DNA from: a phage
DNA length: 46,532 nucleotides
Sequence record: PZ379549.1
Reading direction: 5' to 3' (one strand)
Part shown: piece after piece, positions 100 to 35,515 of the stretch
How positions within the stretch are numbered: position 1 is the stretch's first letter
How the letters are laid out: each line of letters begins with the position of its first letter
Program-made: the position numbers and the translations under genes
The notes under the pieces: model-generated
The model's database searches: none
Told to the model about the DNA's origin: nothing
Seen by the model: only the letters and a program-made list of their open reading frames with translations

Positions 100-585
100 A
101 TGTTTAAATATTTGTTTGATTATGATGGAATGAAATTGATATGGAAAAACCCAACATCACCTAGATTCACAAAGGGCGACGTTGCGGGAACTAAGCATAA
201 GAGAGGATACATTCAAGTTTGCTTTAATAGGAAGCTATACCTTGCTCATAGGATAATATGGGAGATGCATCATGGCGAGATACCTGAAGGGATGCAGATT
301 GACCATGTAAATCAGGACAAATCAGATAACAGGATTTCAAACCTAAGGCTAGTCACGCAGCAGGAAAACAAAAAGAACAAACCAAAGCAAGTAAGAAACT
401 CTAGCGGAGTTAATGGTGTATCTTGGAATAAATCAAATGGAAAATGGCAGGTAAGGATAGGTGTAGATGGAAAAGATGTTCATCTTGGGTATTTTGATAA
501 CATTTCAGACGCTAAAAAAGCAAGATTCGATGCTGACTTTAGATTTAAATACCATGAAAATCACGGTAACAAAAAGCGCCAGTAG
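100..585 (+). CDS. HNH homing endonuclease with AP2-like DNA-binding domain (free-standing)
   Basis: 161-aa ORF; HNH-type block DHVNQDKSDNRISNLRLVTQQEN followed by AP2-like block GVSWNKSNGKWQVRIGVDGKDVHLGYF; antisense between tail chaperone and tape measure genes; paralog at 28631-29110. Confidence 0.7.
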   Translation: MFKYLFDYDGMKLIWKNPTSPRFTKGDVAGTKHKRGYIQVCFNRKLYLAHRIIWEMHHGEIPEGMQIDHVNQDKSDNRISNLRLVTQQENKKNKPKQVRNSSGVNGVSWNKSNGKWQVRIGVDGKDVHLGYFDNISDAKKARFDADFRFKYHENHGNKKRQ

Positions 586-6796: not shown

Positions 6797-7525
6797 TTAT
6801 GACTCCCAATCCGGCACAGCCCAACAACGACAGCCGTATTCCTGACCAGGGAAGAGATCGTTACCGCCCAACCTGAAGCTTAGGCCCTCTTTCTTGAAAT
6901 GGGTCATTCGCTCCCTTTCATCAAGCATGCCGTGCCAAATGTAATGTGTAACACCAGCATCCTCTAGCCTCCTGCGCATGAACGTAGAGTTAATACTGGA
7001 CGTGATGCCTGAGGCTATATTAGCAGTTCTCTTGCGGTAAATCTTGTACCTTTCGTTAATCTTAAGGTAGTCACCACTCTGTATGATTGATGCAGACTGA
7101 ATAAAGTCGTCCTTGATATTGTTGAGTAACTTTTCAACGGACTTATTTGATGTGTAAAGCCACTGGTTTAAATCCGGCTGATACCAATCTTCATCTCCAT
7201 TTATACCGTTAAGTCTCAAGTCCATAACTGACTGGACCGAGCCGCCACCAGTCTTGATTGCCAGCACAAGAAACTGCGATGAATTATACCTGTATATTGA
7301 CGCTCCAATTGCCGGAAGTGTAGCTACAACAGAAGCTATAAGCGCTGCTATGATTGCGTCGAGATAATTATCTTCCTGCTCTAGCTCCTCGGCAGTGTCA
7401 ATCTTAAGCCGCGTAGCTGATTCTTTCATTGCAGATATTAGCTCAGTTACCGCAACGCTAAGGTTGCGGTTTACCTGATTCTCAATTGTCTGCGGGTACT
7501 TCCAGCGGGTCTTCACTGGTTTCAT
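6797..7525 (-). CDS. head morphogenesis protein (SPP1 gp7 / Mu F-like)
   Basis: C-terminal signature WHGMLDERERMTHFKKEG ... PGQEYGCRCW; follows portal. Confidence 0.65.
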   Translation of the reverse strand: MKPVKTRWKYPQTIENQVNRNLSVAVTELISAMKESATRLKIDTAEELEQEDNYLDAIIAALIASVVATLPAIGASIYRYNSSQFLVLAIKTGGGSVQSVMDLRLNGINGDEDWYQPDLNQWLYTSNKSVEKLLNNIKDDFIQSASIIQSGDYLKINERYKIYRKRTANIASGITSSINSTFMRRRLEDAGVTHYIWHGMLDERERMTHFKKEGLSFRLGGNDLFPGQEYGCRCWAVPDWES

Positions 7526-8759
7526 TGATTGTTACCTCTGTCTCAATTGAACCTTCACCAATCTTAACCTCAGGGGCTAATGCGCGCAAGGTATCTCGTG
7601 CTTCGTCTGCATCCATCACGCCGTTAGTGATAAGAGCAGTAATTGAATCAACGTTATTCTTCAGTACTTCAGCGCGGTCTTTCTTCGATTCCTGAGCTAG
7701 AGGGTTAAACTCAACTGACCATTCTTGCTCGGTTGTGACGAACGGGATTAAGAACCCAAGAACTGGAAGTAGCTCTTCGTTACGCTTGCGGTCAATCAAC
7801 TTATGGAATGTCTCTAGCGCTGTGTTTTGGCTAGATGATAACCCGCCAACGTTACGACCTTTGAGAATGATTTCATGGATACCGCTCAGAGCAACAATTC
7901 TGTCGAACTTCTTATCGAGGAATCCATCAATCCCACCAATATCCGAGTTAAGAACGCTGTACTCTTCAGCTTCAGCGTCGATACCAATCGCGCGACCAAC
8001 GCCAGAGTTATCATCAACCTGGGCAAGCCTCAACCTGGCCGCACCAAAACCTTCCGCGTCGTCACACAGTTCAGCAAGGCCTTTAGCCTTCCACACCGCC
8101 TGCTGCTTGCGGCGCAATAACTGAGTTGCCAGTTTCTCACACGTCTGATAATCCTTGATTGATTCAAGCAGGTCAGGAACCAGAACGCTAGCACCCCACC
8201 CGTCATTACCGCGACGCAATGAACTAGGAATCTTCTCGCCATCCATAATGTGAACTCGCGAGTAGTGCACATCATAAAACATGGCGCCACCTTCTGGCGT
8301 GATGCGGTACGTTAATGGCTTACCGAATCGCACATTGCGAGGGTTTTCCTCCTTAGTCTGAACTCTTACCTGGCTACGCTCATAAACGCGAAGTGATTCA
8401 AGTTCCGCGCCTTCACGTACCGGGCTAGTTAGCGCACGATTGTCCTTAGCGATAGCCACAATTGCAGAGCCGCCAAATAACCTCGCCCATGACCATGCGT
8501 CAGAGATTGACTCGTTAACCTTCAGGTAATCCCACCTGGACCAGAATTCACCTTCGTCATCAATACCATCGATATGGAAACCTGCGGCGATTGCTGTCTC
8601 CGGTATGGTGTCGACGATGCGGCGTACAATTGAGTTTGATGCGTACAGTGAATCAGCGAAAGGAGGTGTAAGATACGTGTTGCCAAAGTGCCCGTAAATC
8701 TCGCTACCATCACTGGAGCCACCAAGAAATTGCGTGGCGTATGAATCTGCTTTTACCAT
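7482..8759 (-). CDS. portal protein
   Basis: 425-434 aa ORF between terminase side and head morphogenesis gene; ATG 8759 with GGAG RBS preferred, since track start 8786 lies inside terminator stem. Confidence 0.8.
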   Translation of the reverse strand: MVKADSYATQFLGGSSDGSEIYGHFGNTYLTPPFADSLYASNSIVRRIVDTIPETAIAAGFHIDGIDDEGEFWSRWDYLKVNESISDAWSWARLFGGSAIVAIAKDNRALTSPVREGAELESLRVYERSQVRVQTKEENPRNVRFGKPLTYRITPEGGAMFYDVHYSRVHIMDGEKIPSSLRRGNDGWGASVLVPDLLESIKDYQTCEKLATQLLRRKQQAVWKAKGLAELCDDAEGFGAARLRLAQVDDNSGVGRAIGIDAEAEEYSVLNSDIGGIDGFLDKKFDRIVALSGIHEIILKGRNVGGLSSSQNTALETFHKLIDRKRNEELLPVLGFLIPFVTTEQEWSVEFNPLAQESKKDRAEVLKNNVDSITALITNGVMDADEARDTLRALAPEVKIGEGSIETEVTINETSEDPLEVPADN

Positions 8760-8772
8760 TTTATTTGCTCCA

Positions 8773-8795
8773 ATAAAAAGCCCCATTTAGGGGCT
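8773..8795 (-). terminator. rho-independent terminator between moron and portal
   Basis: Minus-strand RNA GCCCC-UAAAU-GGGGC followed by UUUUUAUUG. Confidence 0.65.
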
Positions 8796-8817
8796 TAGTT
8801 TAGCATAGCTTTTATGG

Positions 8818-9171
8818 TTACTCGAATTTTACTTCGAACTTGATTGATGATGTTTTCACTCCATTAAGTGTTAACTGGCGAACCTCCCTTCTGACTTCAT
8901 AAAATGCCTCTTTAGTTACTATGTCTTTGTTGATGAAGTATTTAATCCCAGCCTTTTCAACTTTAAAATTATCACCTTTAACGACAAAATCGGTAGGCTC
9001 TATAACTTCGAAATCATAAACACTAAGATTAATTACGCCCACATAGCCTTTATCATCCTTAACTTTGACGTATTCATTATTACTTTCAGACGTTCTTGAT
9101 AAGTCATAAATCTTACCAACGGTAAATTCAAAATAACCATATTTTTTATACCCTTTAAATACTGCTTTCAT
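8818..9171 (-). CDS. hypothetical protein (AT-rich moron)
   Basis: 117-aa Lys/Tyr/Phe-rich ORF with visibly lower GC than flanks; own box-promoter unit upstream and terminator downstream. Confidence 0.5.
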   Translation of the reverse strand: MKAVFKGYKKYGYFEFTVGKIYDLSRTSESNNEYVKVKDDKGYVGVINLSVYDFEVIEPTDFVVKGDNFKVEKAGIKYFINKDIVTKEAFYEVRREVRQLTLNGVKTSSIKFEVKFE

Positions 9172-9246
9172 TTTTTACTCCTCTCGTTTGCGTGAAGTAA
9201 CTATAAGCCATCCTTGGCGGCACGTCTTTAGCAAAACGTGCTATTT
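9172..9246 (-). promoter_or_regulatory. box-hairpin-(-10)-leader unit upstream of moron
   Basis: Box at 9226-9246 overlapping TerL stop (TAG), hairpin GCCAAGGATGGC, TATAGT, CACGCAAACGAGAGGAG, ATG 9171. Confidence 0.4.
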
Positions 9247-10824
9247 GATGCCAGCGAGGCGCATCATCCTCGATTTAGGGTCTTCTGCAATGTTCAGTAC
9301 CAGGTTTACGGCCATTGTCAAACAGTCTATCTGGTCATCGTGAACATGTGAATCATCTGCCGTGAATGCCGCAATCTCCGTTAGCAAGCCATTAAGCCAA
9401 GTAGCAGACTCCGGAAGGATTACGTTACCAGCTTTAATCTGCGGCAATGCACTCATTACGCGAGTCAGCTTATCGTTATCCGGAACGTACGGCTCGATAG
9501 GCGTTCGCATAACCCTTCCGGCTGATTGAATCAGGCCAATACCAGAGGCTTTCTTCTCGATGATGATTTTACGAAGGATGCCATCTATCTGATTGGATGC
9601 CCTAGCCATCTTCTCGAAATCCAATAACTCAGCCTCGAGCTCAGGAGCTTCAAATTTACCGCGCCGCTGGTCAAGCAGATAAATCTTCCCATCCTTATAA
9701 CCCCATAGCTGCATGACGCTAAAGTCGCTGTAACTTTTGGTTGTCATCGCAGTATCAAGGACCATAAACCTGTAATCGTACTTAGCTGGCGGTCGCAGAG
9801 TGTCGCTAATGCGTTGAAGCCAGTCTACGTTAATCAGGTTGCCGCCAAGTGCTACTGGTTCTTGCTGATACTGGCTAAGGAATGTATAGCTATCAGAATC
9901 CCACATTGCAACTAGGTCGTGAACAGATTCCTTGCCAGGGAAATAGCTATAGTACCTAACACCATCACGCTCAATATATTCGCTTGATAGAACGTCATCA
10001 ATGAATTGCCGCTTAATCCAGTCAGGAAGCGTGTCGACGTAATCCTCAGTTACGAGCGCCGGTATCTTAATCAAGTCGAAGCTAATACCCATACCGCCAT
10101 TCATCATGAACCACGTACTATCATTCACATGAAGGCGCTGTTGGATAGAGATAATCGGCGTCGCCTTTCCTTTTACGGAGCTCGCCCTACGAGAGCGTAT
10201 TGTATTCTTTAGCATCACGTGATTGTTAGCGCGAAAAACAGCAGAAAGCATGTCGGCTGGTTTGTCAAAATCATCTAACAGAACCGCTCCGCTATATGAA
10301 TCCGTTATATATCCACCCCTTGCGCCGGTTATTTGGCCTCCAGCAGCCTTAGATATTGACTCAAACCGAACCTTACCAGACTCATCCAGAACTTGAAGCT
10401 CATCATCCTTGCACGTACCGAACTTGCATGGGAATAACTCCTGGAACTCAACAGACTTAATCAGGTCCCGAACTCGCTTGGAGTTACGCTTAACAAGTGA
10501 GTCGGCAAACGAGATGTTCAGGTTCCTGACCTTCTTTAGCTTAACCATCGAGTAGGCCGGGAAGTGAATTGAAGCTATCTCTGTTTTTCCACTTCCTGGA
10601 GCGATGTTAATGATTGTGTCCTTGCGCTCACCAGCGATAATCTCGTCAATGATTCGACACAGGTATTTGTGATGCCAGTTAGGGATGTATCGCTCGCCCT
10701 GGGTAAGTTGGAACCACACCCGCAAGAATCCCTCGAAACTATGAGTGGATATAGCCTTAACTGCCATCTTTTCTGCTGGCGTCATTTCTTCCCATACTAA
10801 TGTTTCACTCATCCTACTCTCCAA
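9241..10824 (-). CDS. terminase large subunit
   Basis: 527-aa ORF with ATPase and nuclease-like halves; immediately upstream of portal module. Confidence 0.85.
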   Translation of the reverse strand: MESRMSETLVWEEMTPAEKMAVKAISTHSFEGFLRVWFQLTQGERYIPNWHHKYLCRIIDEIIAGERKDTIINIAPGSGKTEIASIHFPAYSMVKLKKVRNLNISFADSLVKRNSKRVRDLIKSVEFQELFPCKFGTCKDDELQVLDESGKVRFESISKAAGGQITGARGGYITDSYSGAVLLDDFDKPADMLSAVFRANNHVMLKNTIRSRRASSVKGKATPIISIQQRLHVNDSTWFMMNGGMGISFDLIKIPALVTEDYVDTLPDWIKRQFIDDVLSSEYIERDGVRYYSYFPGKESVHDLVAMWDSDSYTFLSQYQQEPVALGGNLINVDWLQRISDTLRPPAKYDYRFMVLDTAMTTKSYSDFSVMQLWGYKDGKIYLLDQRRGKFEAPELEAELLDFEKMARASNQIDGILRKIIIEKKASGIGLIQSAGRVMRTPIEPYVPDNDKLTRVMSALPQIKAGNVILPESATWLNGLLTEIAAFTADDSHVHDDQIDCLTMAVNLVLNIAEDPKSRMMRLAGIK

Positions 10825-10828
10825 ACTA

Positions 10829-11353
10829 TTACAGCTTACTAATCACAGACTCCAGCGCTTCCTTCATCGTATCGACGTCGTTAGCTGAAGAGTTGTTGCT
10901 GATGGTAATCTCCTGCGGCTTGTCGATTCCAAGCTCTTTGGAAATCATGCCAGGGTTAATGATGCCAGATGCTGCAAGCTGGTATTTCTGCTCGCGAATC
11001 ACGGAATCAATGAACGCAATCACCTCATCATAACCAGCCGACTTCCTCCATTTCTCGATGGCGCTATGGGTGACACCGCAGTAAAGGCAGAATCCGGTTA
11101 GCGTGAAGACTCGTGGTTTGTGCACCAGGCTCTCTTTTACCACACCCTGGAAGCTGGCTGTCTCGATTGCCTTGATTGCCTGGTTCTCAGCCCATGAGAA
11201 GTATTTCACGGCGAATTCAAATAGCTGTTCGGGTGTCATGCTTCGGTTTTTGGCTAGCGTTGTAATGTCTGAGTACTTTTTATTGTACATGGCTTTAAAG
11301 TTGCCAGAGCGGACCTTTTCTTGCGCCTGACTGGTGAAGTTTTCGTCTTTCAT
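10829..11353 (-). CDS. putative terminase small subunit
   Basis: 174-aa ORF immediately upstream of TerL, AAGGAGG RBS; assignment by position. Confidence 0.5.
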   Translation of the reverse strand: MKDENFTSQAQEKVRSGNFKAMYNKKYSDITTLAKNRSMTPEQLFEFAVKYFSWAENQAIKAIETASFQGVVKESLVHKPRVFTLTGFCLYCGVTHSAIEKWRKSAGYDEVIAFIDSVIREQKYQLAASGIINPGMISKELGIDKPQEITISNNSSANDVDTMKEALESVISKL

Positions 11354-14258: not shown

Positions 14259-14335
14259 ATCTATACTCCATCTCGTTGTCGATGTGGTAATTATGCCGGA
14301 TTTCTCCGGCAATTGTTTAGCAATTCATGCTATTC
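14259..14335 (-). promoter_or_regulatory. box-hairpin-(-10)-leader unit
   Basis: Box 14315-14335, hairpin GCCGGAGAAATCCGGC, ATAATTAC, CACATCGACAACGAGATGGAG. Confidence 0.4.
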
Positions 14336-16407: not shown

Positions 16408-16495
16408 TACACCATATACATACATATATATAATAATAATAATAATATAGTAAAAGGTTGATATATATAGATATTATTATGTAACCATTGCGTAA
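16408..16495. repeat. AT-rich control module copy A, includes (TAA)5 microsatellite at 16431-16447
   Basis: About 85 percent identical to 35357-35439 by eye. Confidence 0.6.
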
Positions 16496-16642
16496 TCTAG
16501 CGTGGTAGGCGTGTATGATTCTTCGGAAGCGCACCTCATATACACACCATAACTTCGATAACGTGTATATCCAAATTGGCTCAGCAAGAATCAAAATCAA
16601 CTTGTATGGTAGTCCATCCACCATTCATTCACCCCACATCGA

Positions 16643-17923: not shown

Positions 17924-17982
17924 AACTCACCGCCACGGATGGCGTATATTTACTCCATCGAAACGAAAGAGAGCAAGAGATC
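17906..17982 (+). promoter_or_regulatory. box-hairpin-(-10)-leader unit
   Basis: Box 17906-17924, hairpin CGCCACGGATGGCG 17931-17944, TATATT 17945-17950, TACTCCATCGAAACGAAAGAGAG. Confidence 0.45.
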
Positions 17983-22083: not shown

Positions 22084-22160
22084 TTTTGAATCCTCTGTTG
22101 TTTTCGATGTAGTAATTATGCCGGATTACTCCGGCGATTGTTTAGCAATTCGTGCTATTT
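22084..22160 (-). promoter_or_regulatory. box-hairpin-(-10)-leader unit
   Basis: Box 22140-22160 (encodes kinase C-terminus NSTNC), hairpin GCCGGAttacTCCGGC 22120-22135, ATAATTAC, CATCGAAAACAACAGAGGA. Confidence 0.45.
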
Positions 22161-23171: not shown

Positions 23172-23250
23172 TACAACTCCTCATCTCGTTATCGTTTATT
23201 CATTTTGCCTCAATCCTTTGAGGCTTTATTAACAAAAAATGCTATTACTT
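23172..23250 (-). promoter_or_regulatory. box-hairpin-leader unit (variant box)
   Basis: AATAGCATTTTTTG box 23231-23250, 7-bp-stem hairpin GCCTCAA-tcct-TTGAGGC 23207-23224, leader TAAACGATAACGAGATGAGGAG. Confidence 0.35.
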
Positions 23251-28630: not shown

Positions 28631-29110
28631 ATGAACTGGCATGATTATTTTTACTATGTAGATGGCAAATTGCATTGGAAGATTAGCACTGCAAGACGTG
28701 TTAAGGTTGGCGATGAGTGCAACTCACTATCTACATCTGGCTATTACAAAGTGTCTGTTAATGGCTTTAGGACTTATGTACATAGAGTTGTGTGGGAGAT
28801 GTTTAATGGAGAACTTCAAAATGGCGACTACATTGATCATATAAACCATAACAAATTAGATAACAGAATAGAAAACCTAAGAGTAACAACAAATCAAGGT
28901 AACTCAAGAAATTGCAAGCTTAGCGTTTTATCAACAACTGGTTATTGTGGAGTGGCAAAGCTAAATCACGGAAAATTTAAGGCTCACATCAAGGTTGACG
29001 GCAAGCAGCTACACCTTGGGAACTTCGATACTCCAGAGCGGGCGTATAAAGTAAGAATTGAAGCAGAGGGAAAATACAACTTTCACGAAAATCACGGGTT
29101 AAGCAAATGA
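28631..29110 (+). CDS. HNH homing endonuclease with AP2-like domain (paralog of 100-585)
   Basis: Same architecture: DHINHNKLDNRIENLRVTTNQGN then GVAKLNHGKFKAHIKVDGKQLHLGNF. Confidence 0.7.
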   Translation: MNWHDYFYYVDGKLHWKISTARRVKVGDECNSLSTSGYYKVSVNGFRTYVHRVVWEMFNGELQNGDYIDHINHNKLDNRIENLRVTTNQGNSRNCKLSVLSTTGYCGVAKLNHGKFKAHIKVDGKQLHLGNFDTPERAYKVRIEAEGKYNFHENHGLSK

Positions 29111-35047: not shown

Positions 35048-35356
35048 TTCTGTATCTCTCTGTTTGCTTGCTTGCTTGCTTTCGATGGTTTAACTATATA
35101 TTCAGCGCCGCACCCAGTCCAATTGGTTTCGCCAATCGTTGATTTAAGTTTACGCGTGAATTCTTGTAATTCCGTGTGTACATTGGAACTAGTTACGTTT
35201 TTTGGTACCTGAGCCAAGCTATAGCTCAATGTAAATAGTGCGTATATCATGTATATCATTTATTGCTGAGGGTGCATTGGTATAGCTACCGCGCAATACT
35301 GTATAAATCCACATGATATTAAAATTATAACCGAAACACTCCATAAGAGCAGTTAC

Positions 35357-35439
35357 ATGATATACATAGTAATATATATAATAATAATAATAAGAGTAAA
35401 AGGTTGATATATATATATATTTTAATGTAACCAATGCGT
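35357..35439. repeat. AT-rich control module copy B, includes (TAA)n and (TA)n tracts
   Basis: About 85 percent identical to 16408-16495 by eye. Confidence 0.6.
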
Positions 35440-35515
35440 AAATTGGCGTAACATTGCGTATATCATTTTTCGCGGATGAGATTGCATACATCGAGTTACA
35501 TCGGTTACGCGTAAA

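What the first reader, a model, noticed from the sequence alone, without database searches (positions are those of the whole stretch)
8818..9171. AT-rich moron with its own box promoter and terminator between TerL and portal
This ORF has visibly lower GC than the flanking genes and splits the usually contiguous terminase-portal pair. It is preceded by a box unit whose box overlaps the TerL stop, and followed by a strong terminator before the portal RBS. An independently transcribed cargo gene of unknown function in the late operon is a typical slot for anti-defence or exclusion functions.
Basis: seen in the sequence. Interest (0 to 1): 0.55.

Follow-up and report, generated by a model that had tools for sequence, protein, structure and literature searches.

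The report
Swappable accessory gene between terminase and portal
A small, AT-rich, optional gene of unknown function sits in a variable slot between the terminase and portal genes of a T1-like coliphage; it is a real candidate host-interaction gene, but its "own" promoter box and terminator are standard features of this phage family.

Summary
A 117-codon ORF lies at 8818-9171 on the minus strand, between TerL (9241-10824) and portal (7482-8759). It is the lowest-GC stretch of the whole window (32% against 44%). A 21-nt box unit overlapping the TerL stop precedes it, and a hairpin terminator follows it.

The window is a T1-like (Drexlerviridae) coliphage. Of 55 related loci, 46 have TerL and portal adjacent, 5 carry this gene family and 4 carry an HNH homing endonuclease. 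Near-identical relatives differ at the slot: Rao1 is empty, and IMM-001 (TerL 98%, portal 96% identical) carries an allele only 34% identical.

The terminator is not the gene's own. It precedes portal in gene-less relatives too, T1 included. The box is a repeat already described in phage TLS.

Family copies also occur between tail genes of JulesPiccard and in an rV5-like 140-kb phage, each with a promoter-like element directly upstream.

The protein is soluble and has an SH3-like N-domain, a small C-domain, conserved termini and a variable middle. No informative homologue was found. The label "virion structural protein" appears only in RefSeq and PHROG records, and I found no evidence behind it.

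Verdict: a moron-like accessory cassette. Its function, anti-defence included, is untested.

The parts
9226..9246 (-). 21-nt box (AAATAGCACGTTTTGCTAAAG), with dyad TAGCA-N5-TGCTA at 9243-9229. It contains the TerL stop codon TAG (9243-9241).
   Evidence: (repeat families D6 and D18). Same element as the TLS direct repeat (PMC11447400).
9200..9205 (-). -10-like hexamer TATAGT, 23 nt downstream of the box. The inferred transcription start is near 9193.
   Evidence: 21-23 nt spacing in 14 of 15 box units, and a hexamer matching at least 5 of 6 positions in 12 of 15. In the rV5-like copy a canonical TTGACA-17-TATAAT sits at the same distance (27-28 nt) from the start codon. Function as a promoter is inferred, not shown.
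9178..9185 (-). Shine-Dalgarno sequence GAGAGGAG, 6 nt before the ATG.
   Evidence: Sequence. The leader CACGCAAACGAGAGGAG is 90-93% identical to that of other family members.
8818..9171 (-). ORF117: a 117-aa, 13.7-kDa, pI 8.9 soluble protein. It belongs to PHROG 14592. It has an SH3-like N-domain (residues 1-57), a low-confidence linker (61-71) and a beta-beta-alpha-beta C-domain (76-116).
8770..8796 (-). Intrinsic-terminator-like hairpin AAGCCCC-TAAAT-GGGGCTT plus a T-run. It is the resident TerL-portal junction element.
   Evidence: Present in gene-less relatives and annotated in T1.
8797..8850 (-). Conserved right edge of the cassette. It comprises the last 10 codons (SSIKFEVKFE), TAA, and CCATAAAAGCTATGCTAAACT.
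   Evidence: Nucleotide identity to other alleles is 0.83-1.0 here, against 0.2-0.6 inside the gene.
9241..10824 (-). Terminase large subunit (left flank of the slot).
7482..8759 (-). Portal protein (right flank of the slot). RBS GGAG at 8771-8768, start ATG at 8759.

Best explanation
ORF117 is a non-essential accessory gene cassette, moron-like, in a variable slot of a virulent T1-like coliphage.

In this sub-lineage the cassette is a box-type promoter unit plus the ORF. It sits between the TerL stop codon and the resident junction terminator.

Shown: alleles are gained, lost and replaced between almost identical flanks, and the family also occurs at other sites and in an unrelated phage.

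Inferred: exchange happens by recombination through the conserved edges. These are the box and leader on the 5' side, and the last 10 codons plus the terminator on the 3' side.

Inferred: the gene is transcribed from its own promoter-like unit and strongly translated. Most of its transcripts would stop at the hairpin, and read-through would continue into portal.

Inferred, and the weakest step: the product is a soluble intracellular two-domain protein. Its SH3-like domain and constrained terminal strands bind a partner that is not specific to T1-type virions. That partner is most likely a host factor or a component of a competing element, so the gene would act in host interaction, counter-defence or exclusion rather than in building the particle.
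For: Presence and absence:
- 46 of 55 IMG/VR loci have an empty junction, 5 carry the family and 4 carry an HNH endonuclease.
- At least 38 of 839 phage records with this portal type hold a family member.
- T1 is empty, and so is Rao1, whose portal is 94% identical.

Allele swap: IMM-001 has TerL 98% and portal 96% identical, but its slot protein is only 34% identical.

Sharp edges: nucleotide identity is about 0.9 in the leader, 0.2-0.6 inside the gene, and 0.87-1.0 in the last 30 nt.

Mobility:
- JulesPiccard has a second copy between minor tail genes, with the same layout.
- A 140-kb rV5-like contig has a copy among replication-region genes, behind a consensus sigma-70 promoter.

It is a real protein:
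- Strong RBS.
- Synonymous sites are saturated across the family (pS about 0.75), while pN is 0.32 for residues 1-25 and 0.15 for the last 10 residues.
- The family is small, with only 30 cluster representatives among 1.84 billion proteins.

Fast change: within the 99.2%-identical block shared with phage ES, ORF117 has 6 nonsynonymous and 0 synonymous differences, against 6 and 6 in about 2 kb of flanks. This is suggestive only.

Soluble: no hydrophobic segment.

Composition: the other low-GC genes of the window are also accessory or mobile types, namely HNH endonucleases, a polynucleotide kinase and a dNMP kinase.

The conserved termini persist in the rV5-like copy, whose virion proteins are unrelated. 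This argues against a T1-specific virion anchor.
Against: - There is no functional evidence of any kind.
- Pfam, NCBIfam and PADLOC give nothing. PDB sequence and profile searches give nothing.
- RefSeq and PHROG records name the family 'virion structural protein', and one GenBank record says 'putative minor outer capsid protein'. I could not reach the phiEB49 or Rtp papers to check whether virion proteomics lies behind the name.
- A conserved anchor with a variable exposed middle is also what a surface decoration protein would look like.
- Promoter activity of box units has never been shown. The TLS authors also consider stoperator and enhancer roles.
- Rtp-type alleles have normal GC (0.43-0.44), so low GC is not a family trait.
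- The phiEB49 allele is frameshifted. Its loss is therefore tolerated, unless the frameshift is a sequencing error.
Confidence: 0.55

Rival explanations
1. It is an optional virion-associated protein, such as a decoration, neck or 'minor outer capsid' protein. The conserved N- and C-terminal strands would anchor it to the particle, and the variable middle would be exposed and diversify.
For: - PHROG 14592 and RefSeq records say 'virion structural protein'. AN_ECEAS says 'putative minor outer capsid protein'.
- It sits inside the head-gene block. The second JulesPiccard copy sits inside the tail block.
- The pattern of conserved ends and a variable middle fits.
Against: - All primary GenBank submissions call it hypothetical.
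- The two T1-like virion proteomics papers I could read, on Rogue1 and the AHP24 group (JK06-like phages), did not report it. Those analyses were gel-band based and not sensitive, and I did not check whether those phages carry the gene.
- It is absent from about 95% of phages with the same portal, capsid and cement proteins.
- Alleles only 34% identical sit beside 96-98% identical TerL and portal.
- A copy with the same termini lives in an rV5-like myovirus, next to a DNA polymerase gene.
- No fold similarity to known decoration or head-completion proteins was found.
Confidence: 0.2
2. It is a selfish or neutral passenger of a recombination hotspot. The cassette persists because its conserved regulatory edges make it easy to copy between phages, not because the protein helps the phage.
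For: - HNH homing endonucleases use the same slot.
- The distribution is patchy, and there is a frameshifted copy in phiEB49. The matches in ACG-M12-type records are split or truncated.
- All six differences from phage ES are nonsynonymous, which would fit relaxed constraint.
- It lies in the most AT-rich stretch of the genome, as do other mobile genes.
Against: - Protein-level purifying selection acts on the termini while synonymous sites are saturated.
- The reading frame is intact in nearly all members across deep divergence.
- A strong RBS and a promoter-like unit are kept at every location, even when the promoter type differs.
- There is no nuclease or transposase motif.
Confidence: 0.13
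3. It is a modulator of DNA packaging or head assembly. It would act on TerL, portal or their expression, for example by tuning transcription into portal or assisting portal-terminase docking.
For: - Its position is exactly between TerL and portal, and other phages have small assembly genes in this place. Lambda gene W lies between A and B (my own knowledge).
- The insertion adds a promoter-like unit upstream of the junction terminator. Read-through could therefore change portal transcript levels.
Against: - Most relatives do without it.
- The allele does not co-vary with TerL or portal.
- Copies exist at a tail-gene site and in an unrelated phage.
Confidence: 0.07

Closest known systems
Morons of lambdoid phages (Juhala/Hendrix concept; recalled from my own knowledge)
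   Same: An extra gene lies between two late genes that are adjacent in relatives. It has a promoter-like element upstream, a terminator downstream and deviant base composition.
   Different: The host phage is virulent, so there is no prophage expression or benefit to a lysogen. The terminator is the resident junction terminator. The promoter-like unit is the phage family's generic box unit.
21-nt direct repeat of phage TLS, and the proposed T1 'transcriptons' (German et al. 2024, PMC11447400)
   Same: The sequence (aaATAGCACnnnTTGnTAAAA), orientation and distance to start codons are the same (about 76 nt there, 72-84 nt here). Terminator-flanked modules are also a shared feature.
   Different: That paper does not discuss the TerL-portal slot gene. 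The function of the repeat is still open.
Accessory regions of phage genomes (Silas et al. 2023, bioRxiv 10.1101/2023.04.06.535777)
   Same: It is a hotspot bounded by conserved core genes, with variable, fast-evolving, non-essential content.
   Different: I found no sign that this slot or family was screened there. The paper's text mentions no T1-like phages.
PeSL promoter/stem-loop cassettes of T4-type phages (Arbiol et al. 2010; recalled from my own knowledge, not checked here)
   Same: ORFan genes are bracketed by conserved regulatory sequences. These sequences seem to serve as recombination handles for module shuffling.
   Different: The motifs, the phage family and the promoter class are all different.
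HNH homing endonuclease insertions at the same junction
   Same: They use the same slot, and in L013 and L023 the same box unit overlaps the TerL stop.
   Different: ORF117 has no nuclease motif and is a different protein.
Small SH3-like phage proteins: DUF7244 of the Drexlerviridae lysis module (PMC13164509), and Gp54 of Bas11 (PDB 9axb)
   Different: There is no detectable sequence relationship, the genomic location differs, and ORF117 has an additional conserved C-terminal domain.

Membership tests
Moron (independent transcription unit inserted in a late operon) | An extra gene between two genes that are adjacent in related phages | tested here: met
   46 of 55 related loci are empty. Rao1 (portal 94% identical) and T1 are empty.
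Moron (independent transcription unit inserted in a late operon) | Its own promoter | tested here: inconclusive
   A typical box unit with a -10-like TATAGT is present and is absent from the closest gene-less relatives. The rV5-like copy has a consensus sigma-70 promoter at the same place. Promoter activity of box units has not been demonstrated.
Moron (independent transcription unit inserted in a late operon) | Its own terminator | tested here: not met
   A terminator follows the gene. It is the junction terminator, which is also present in gene-less relatives.
Moron (independent transcription unit inserted in a late operon) | Base composition different from its neighbours | tested here: met
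   It has the lowest GC and GC3 in the window. Rtp-type alleles do not share this.
Moron (independent transcription unit inserted in a late operon) | Expression independent of the late operon, classically from the prophage | not testable with these tools
   The phage is virulent and no transcript data are available.
PHROG 14592 | Full-length profile match | tested here: met
   E = 3.5e-28, residues 1-117 against profile positions 2-116 of 116.
Virion structural protein (the label of PHROG 14592 and RefSeq) | Physical presence in purified particles | not testable with these tools
   No proteomic evidence was found in the papers I could read. The phiEB49 and Rtp papers are not held.
Virion structural protein (the label of PHROG 14592 and RefSeq) | Conserved together with the virion module it would belong to | tested here: not met
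   It is absent from about 95% of phages with this portal type. The allele does not co-vary with TerL or portal. A copy lies in an unrelated myovirus.
Homing endonuclease (the other occupant of the slot) | HNH, GIY-YIG or LAGLIDADG nuclease domain | tested here: not met
   No Pfam or NCBIfam hit. The predicted fold is SH3-like plus beta-beta-alpha-beta.
SH3-like fold | Five-stranded small barrel with structural matches to SH3 domains | tested here: inconclusive
Known anti-defence proteins | Homology to a characterised inhibitor, or a defence-inhibition phenotype | not tested
   No anti-defence library was available. PADLOC holds defence systems, not inhibitors, and gave no hit.

The most novel reading that the evidence does not exclude
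The family is a fast-diversifying counter-defence or immune-decoy protein. It travels among unrelated coliphages (Drexlerviridae and rV5-like myoviruses) as a promoter-equipped cassette. The conserved box/leader and the ORF-end/terminator edges act as landing pads for allele swapping. The SH3-like domain would bind a host immune sensor or a competing element's protein.
Probability: 0.25. Interest if true: 0.65.

Novelty: new member of a known kind. Interest (0 to 1): 0.35.

Why it matters
If the protein proves to act on the host or on rival elements, this small family would be a new counter-defence or exclusion factor of T1-like phages. These phages are widely used in defence-system studies (BASEL phages, ZL19).

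The slot would also be a convenient, naturally permissive site for engineering cargo into these phages.

The database name 'virion structural protein' looks unsupported and could mislead annotation pipelines.

The cassette edges give a concrete example of how regulatory repeats can guide gene shuffling in virulent phages.

Tried and rejected
- Homology searches: Pfam, NCBIfam and PADLOC gave no hit for ORF117. PDB sequence searches with the single protein and with a 38-sequence profile gave only chance-level hits.
- Weak profile hits to four large repeat proteins (P0041-P0044) fell on unrelated beta-rich domains of different kinds (Big_13, He_PIG, galectin; P0041 carries only a Por secretion tail). 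I dismissed them as beta-strand noise.
- No second copy of the family exists in the window.
- The first pN/pS comparison with phage ES used whole TerL and portal genes. It was confounded by mosaic blocks. I redid it inside the shared 7900-10350 block. The result (6:0 against 6:6) is only suggestive.
- I considered that 'TGnTAAACT' just upstream of the junction hairpin is an extended -10 promoter for portal. Other terminators in the window show similar A-rich or stop-codon sequences there. I therefore treat the idea as unsupported.
- I looked for target-site duplications at the two JulesPiccard insertion sites and at the TerL-portal site. There is only ambiguous microhomology (TTAA/AAATA).
- The phiEB49 (Battaglioli 2011) and Rtp (Wietzorrek 2006) papers could not be read. 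The origin of the 'virion structural protein' label remains unresolved.
- Papers on ZL19 trigger screens and on accessory-gene screens gave no statement about this gene.

Full report
**What is at the coordinates.** The ORF 8818..9171 is real but lies on the minus strand. It encodes 117 aa, with ATG at 9171 and TAA at 8820-8818. On that strand the order is TerS (10829-11353, GP3_package), TerL (9241-10824, Terminase_6C and PHROG 38), ORF117, portal (7482-8759, Phage_portal_3), a Mu-F-like protein and a DUF2213 protein. The window is a T1-like coliphage of the Drexlerviridae, subfamily Braunvirinae. In this region it is 98.9% identical to Escherichia phages ES and AN_ECEAS.

**Composition.**
- ORF117 has 31.9% GC. 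The lowest-GC 354-nt window of the whole 46.5 kb starts at 8824, and only 0.1% of such windows are as low (mean 44.1%, sd 3.7%).
- Among 55 ORFs of at least 80 aa it has the lowest GC and the lowest GC3.
- Its synonymous-codon likelihood under the genome's own usage is slightly better than average. The gene is therefore extreme in AT content rather than foreign in codon preference.
- The other low-GC genes of the window are two HNH endonucleases, a polynucleotide kinase and a dNMP kinase. These are also accessory or mobile types.

**The flanking signals.**
- Upstream, the 15-nt dyad TAGCACGTTTTGCTA (9243-9229) contains the TerL stop codon. After 23 nt comes TATAGT (9205-9200), then the leader CACGCAAACGAGAGGAG, and the ATG 28 nt after the hexamer.
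- The motif TAGCA-N5-TGCTA occurs 18 times in the window against 2.2 expected. Fourteen of 15 oriented copies have a 21-23-nt spacer to a -10-like hexamer, and the start codon usually lies 72-84 nt from the box. The ORF117 copy is therefore a typical unit.
- This element is already published. German et al. 2024 describe a 21-nt direct repeat, aaATAGCACnnnTTGnTAAAA, about 76 nt upstream of start codons in TLS. They note it in T1, Rtp and Rogue1, and leave its role open as stoperator, enhancer site or UP-like element. They also recall that the T1 late region appears to be built of terminator-flanked 'transcriptons', and add that they could not confirm this for TLS (PMC11447400).
- Downstream, a hairpin of 7 bp with 5 G-C pairs (8796-8778) plus a T-run is followed by the portal RBS and ATG.

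**Comparative survey of the slot.**
- I collected 57 related loci from IMG/VR with the portal protein as query. In the 55 where both TerL and portal were located, I measured the distance from the end of TerL to the start of portal.
- Forty-six loci have no gene there, five carry a homologue of ORF117, and four carry an HNH homing endonuclease, one of them frameshifted.
- In the GenBank phage collection, 839 records have this portal type and at least 38 hold a family member.
- T1 itself has TerL, an annotated terminator and portal, with nothing in between.
- The hairpin, T-run and GGAG are present directly before portal in all the gene-less junctions listed. The terminator therefore belongs to the junction, not to ORF117.
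- The box overlapping the TerL stop is also present in many of the more distant gene-less relatives. There a TATAAT lies only 8 nt downstream, followed by the hairpin.
- The closest gene-less relatives have no box. Rao1 and L010-L022 read TAA-GCGTGATAAACTAG-hairpin. In this sub-lineage the inserted DNA is therefore the box unit plus the ORF plus about 14 nt, placed between the TerL stop and the resident terminator.

**Allele replacement and mobility.**
- Phage IMM-001 has TerL 98% and portal 96% identical to the window. Its slot protein is only 34% identical to ORF117.
- Nucleotide identity between alleles is about 0.9 in the leader. It falls to 0.2-0.6 inside the gene and returns to 0.87-1.0 in the last 30 nt of the ORF and just beyond. 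The megablast hits that end about 30 nt inside the 3' end of the ORF show the same edge.
- JulesPiccard (Bas03) carries two copies. One is in the slot. The other lies between two minor tail protein genes and has the same layout: a box over the upstream stop codon, the leader, the ORF, a TAAACTA-hairpin, and ATTGGAG before the next gene. The window has that tail-gene junction empty, with a similar hairpin.
- A 140-kb contig related to rV5-like myoviruses carries a copy next to a DNA polymerase gene and small genes of unknown function. That copy is preceded by a consensus TTGACA-17-TATAAT, placed 27 nt from the ATG. It is followed by a T1-type box unit and another small gene.
- Two different promoter types thus sit at the same distance from the start codon. 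This is indirect support that the family is individually promoted wherever it resides.
- Three divergent metagenomic members that I looked up all sit in the TerL-portal slot.

**The protein.**
- The family is tiny. A word-indexed search found 18 proteins, and an exhaustive profile search of 1.84 billion proteins found 30 cluster representatives.
- Alignments show a nearly invariant N-terminus (MKAVFKGY) and C-terminus (SSIKFEVKFE). The middle is highly variable and has indels.
- Across seven diverse members, synonymous sites are saturated (pS about 0.75). pN is 0.32 for residues 1-25, 0.50 for the middle, 0.49 for residues 73-107 and 0.15 for the last ten residues. This is a translated gene, and its two terminal strands are under protein-level constraint.
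- Within the 99.2%-identical block shared with phage ES (7900-10350), ORF117 carries six nonsynonymous and no synonymous differences. About 2 kb of flanking coding sequence carries six of each. This hints at fast protein change, but the numbers are small.
- The protein is 13.7 kDa, has pI 8.9, is hydrophilic and has no membrane segment.
- AlphaFold2 with the 38-sequence alignment gives pLDDT 83.8. The model has a five-stranded N-domain (residues 1-57), a low-confidence linker (61-71) and a beta-beta-alpha-beta C-domain.
- Pfam, NCBIfam, PADLOC and PDB sequence or profile searches find nothing.

**The database label.** PHROG 14592 matches full-length (E = 3.5e-28) and is labelled 'virion structural protein'. 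The same name appears in the RefSeq versions of EC3a, phiEB49, ACG-M12, Sd1, JK06, Rtp and IME253. All the corresponding primary GenBank records say 'hypothetical' or give a bare gene name. The virion proteomics papers I could read did not report this protein. The ACG-M12 paper contains no proteomics. The phiEB49 and Rtp papers are not in the library. The label is therefore unverified.

Three observations argue against a core structural role:
- Most phages with the same head genes lack the gene.
- The allele does not co-vary with TerL or portal.
- A copy with the same conserved termini sits in a phage with unrelated virion proteins.

An optional surface protein cannot be excluded.

**Interpretation.** The best-supported reading is an accessory, moron-like cassette in a recombination hotspot that also takes up homing endonucleases. 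The cassette is exchanged through conserved regulatory edges. It encodes a soluble adaptor-like protein whose partner is not specific to T1-type virions.

A role in host interaction, counter-defence or exclusion is the most likely one. It fits the published picture of phage accessory regions. It rests on inference only.

Both are standard features of T1-like genomes, and the terminator is resident at the junction.

**Novelty.** The box, the transcripton layout and the gene family (as a PHROG) are all on record. The following appear to be new but incremental:
- the slot survey;
- the allele swap between near-identical flanks;
- the second insertion site;
- the cross-family copy;
- the doubt about the database name.

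Noticed in passing
window, 18 sites (e.g. 12973, 14318, 15000, 17908, 18688, 22143, 25572, 33866, 35518, 36267): The box dyad TAGCA-N5-TGCTA keeps a fixed spacer of 22 nt (range 21-23) to a -10-like hexamer. Its centre therefore falls near -42, the position of class II activator sites. TTGCTA is 5 nt too far upstream to serve as a normal -35. This suggests a dimeric activator-dependent promoter class. The TLS paper leaves the function open.
   Followed up: partly
window, spacers of box units (e.g. 14294-14311, 17931-17944, 22119-22136, 23207-23224): Most box units carry a short inverted repeat between the box and the -10-like hexamer, or around the hexamer. Examples are GCCGGAGAAATCCGGC, CGCCACGGATGGCG and GCCTCAAAGGATTGAGGC. 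The stem sequences differ between units while pairing is kept, so a structure seems to be selected. No explanation so far.
   Followed up: no
window 16408-16503 and 35354-35449: Two copies of a very AT-rich repeat of about 96 nt, 76% identical. Both lie in the other deep GC minima of the window, near points where transcription direction changes. They may be origin or regulatory regions.
   Followed up: no
window 100-585 (+) and 28631-29110 (+): Two HNH homing endonuclease genes (PHROG 99), both of low GC. Phage ES has a further HNH gene between TerS and TerL, which the window lacks.
   Followed up: partly
L003/L006 (phiEB49) 3001-3330 of L003; ACG-M12-type records: The phiEB49 slot gene is broken by a frameshift in an A-run and is annotated as a 68-aa 'virion structural protein'. 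In ACG-M12-type records the tblastn match stops at residue 102 or comes in two pieces. This is either decay of a dispensable gene or a sequencing error.
   Followed up: partly
L007 4380-4460 (rV5-like 140-kb contig IMGVR_UViG_3300045988_159287): A complete T1-type box unit (ATAGCACTTTTTGCTAAAGAC, a 22-nt spacer, TATATT, leader, GAGGAG) sits in a myovirus-like genome, directly after the family member and before another small gene. More than one T1-type module seems to have moved between phage families.
   Followed up: partly
L042 and L062, TerL-portal junction: Here the HNH gene starts at or overlapping the TerL stop, and the HNH gene's own end carries the box. It ends in ...AAGAAATAGCAC, much like the ...GAAGAAATAGCAC TerL ends of related gene-less junctions. 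The endonuclease therefore inserted upstream of the box, unlike in L013 and L023, where the box unit precedes the HNH gene.
   Followed up: no
window 8757-8786: The mechanical ORF call for portal starts at 8786, inside the terminator hairpin. The real start is the ATG at 8759, which lies behind GGAG and matches the annotated relatives.
   Followed up: yes
window 7400-7900 and 10350-10900 compared with phage ES (L001): The window and ES share a 99.2%-identical block from about 7900 to about 10350. The sequences diverge sharply on both sides, inside the portal and TerL genes. Mosaic joints therefore fall within essential genes.
   Followed up: partly
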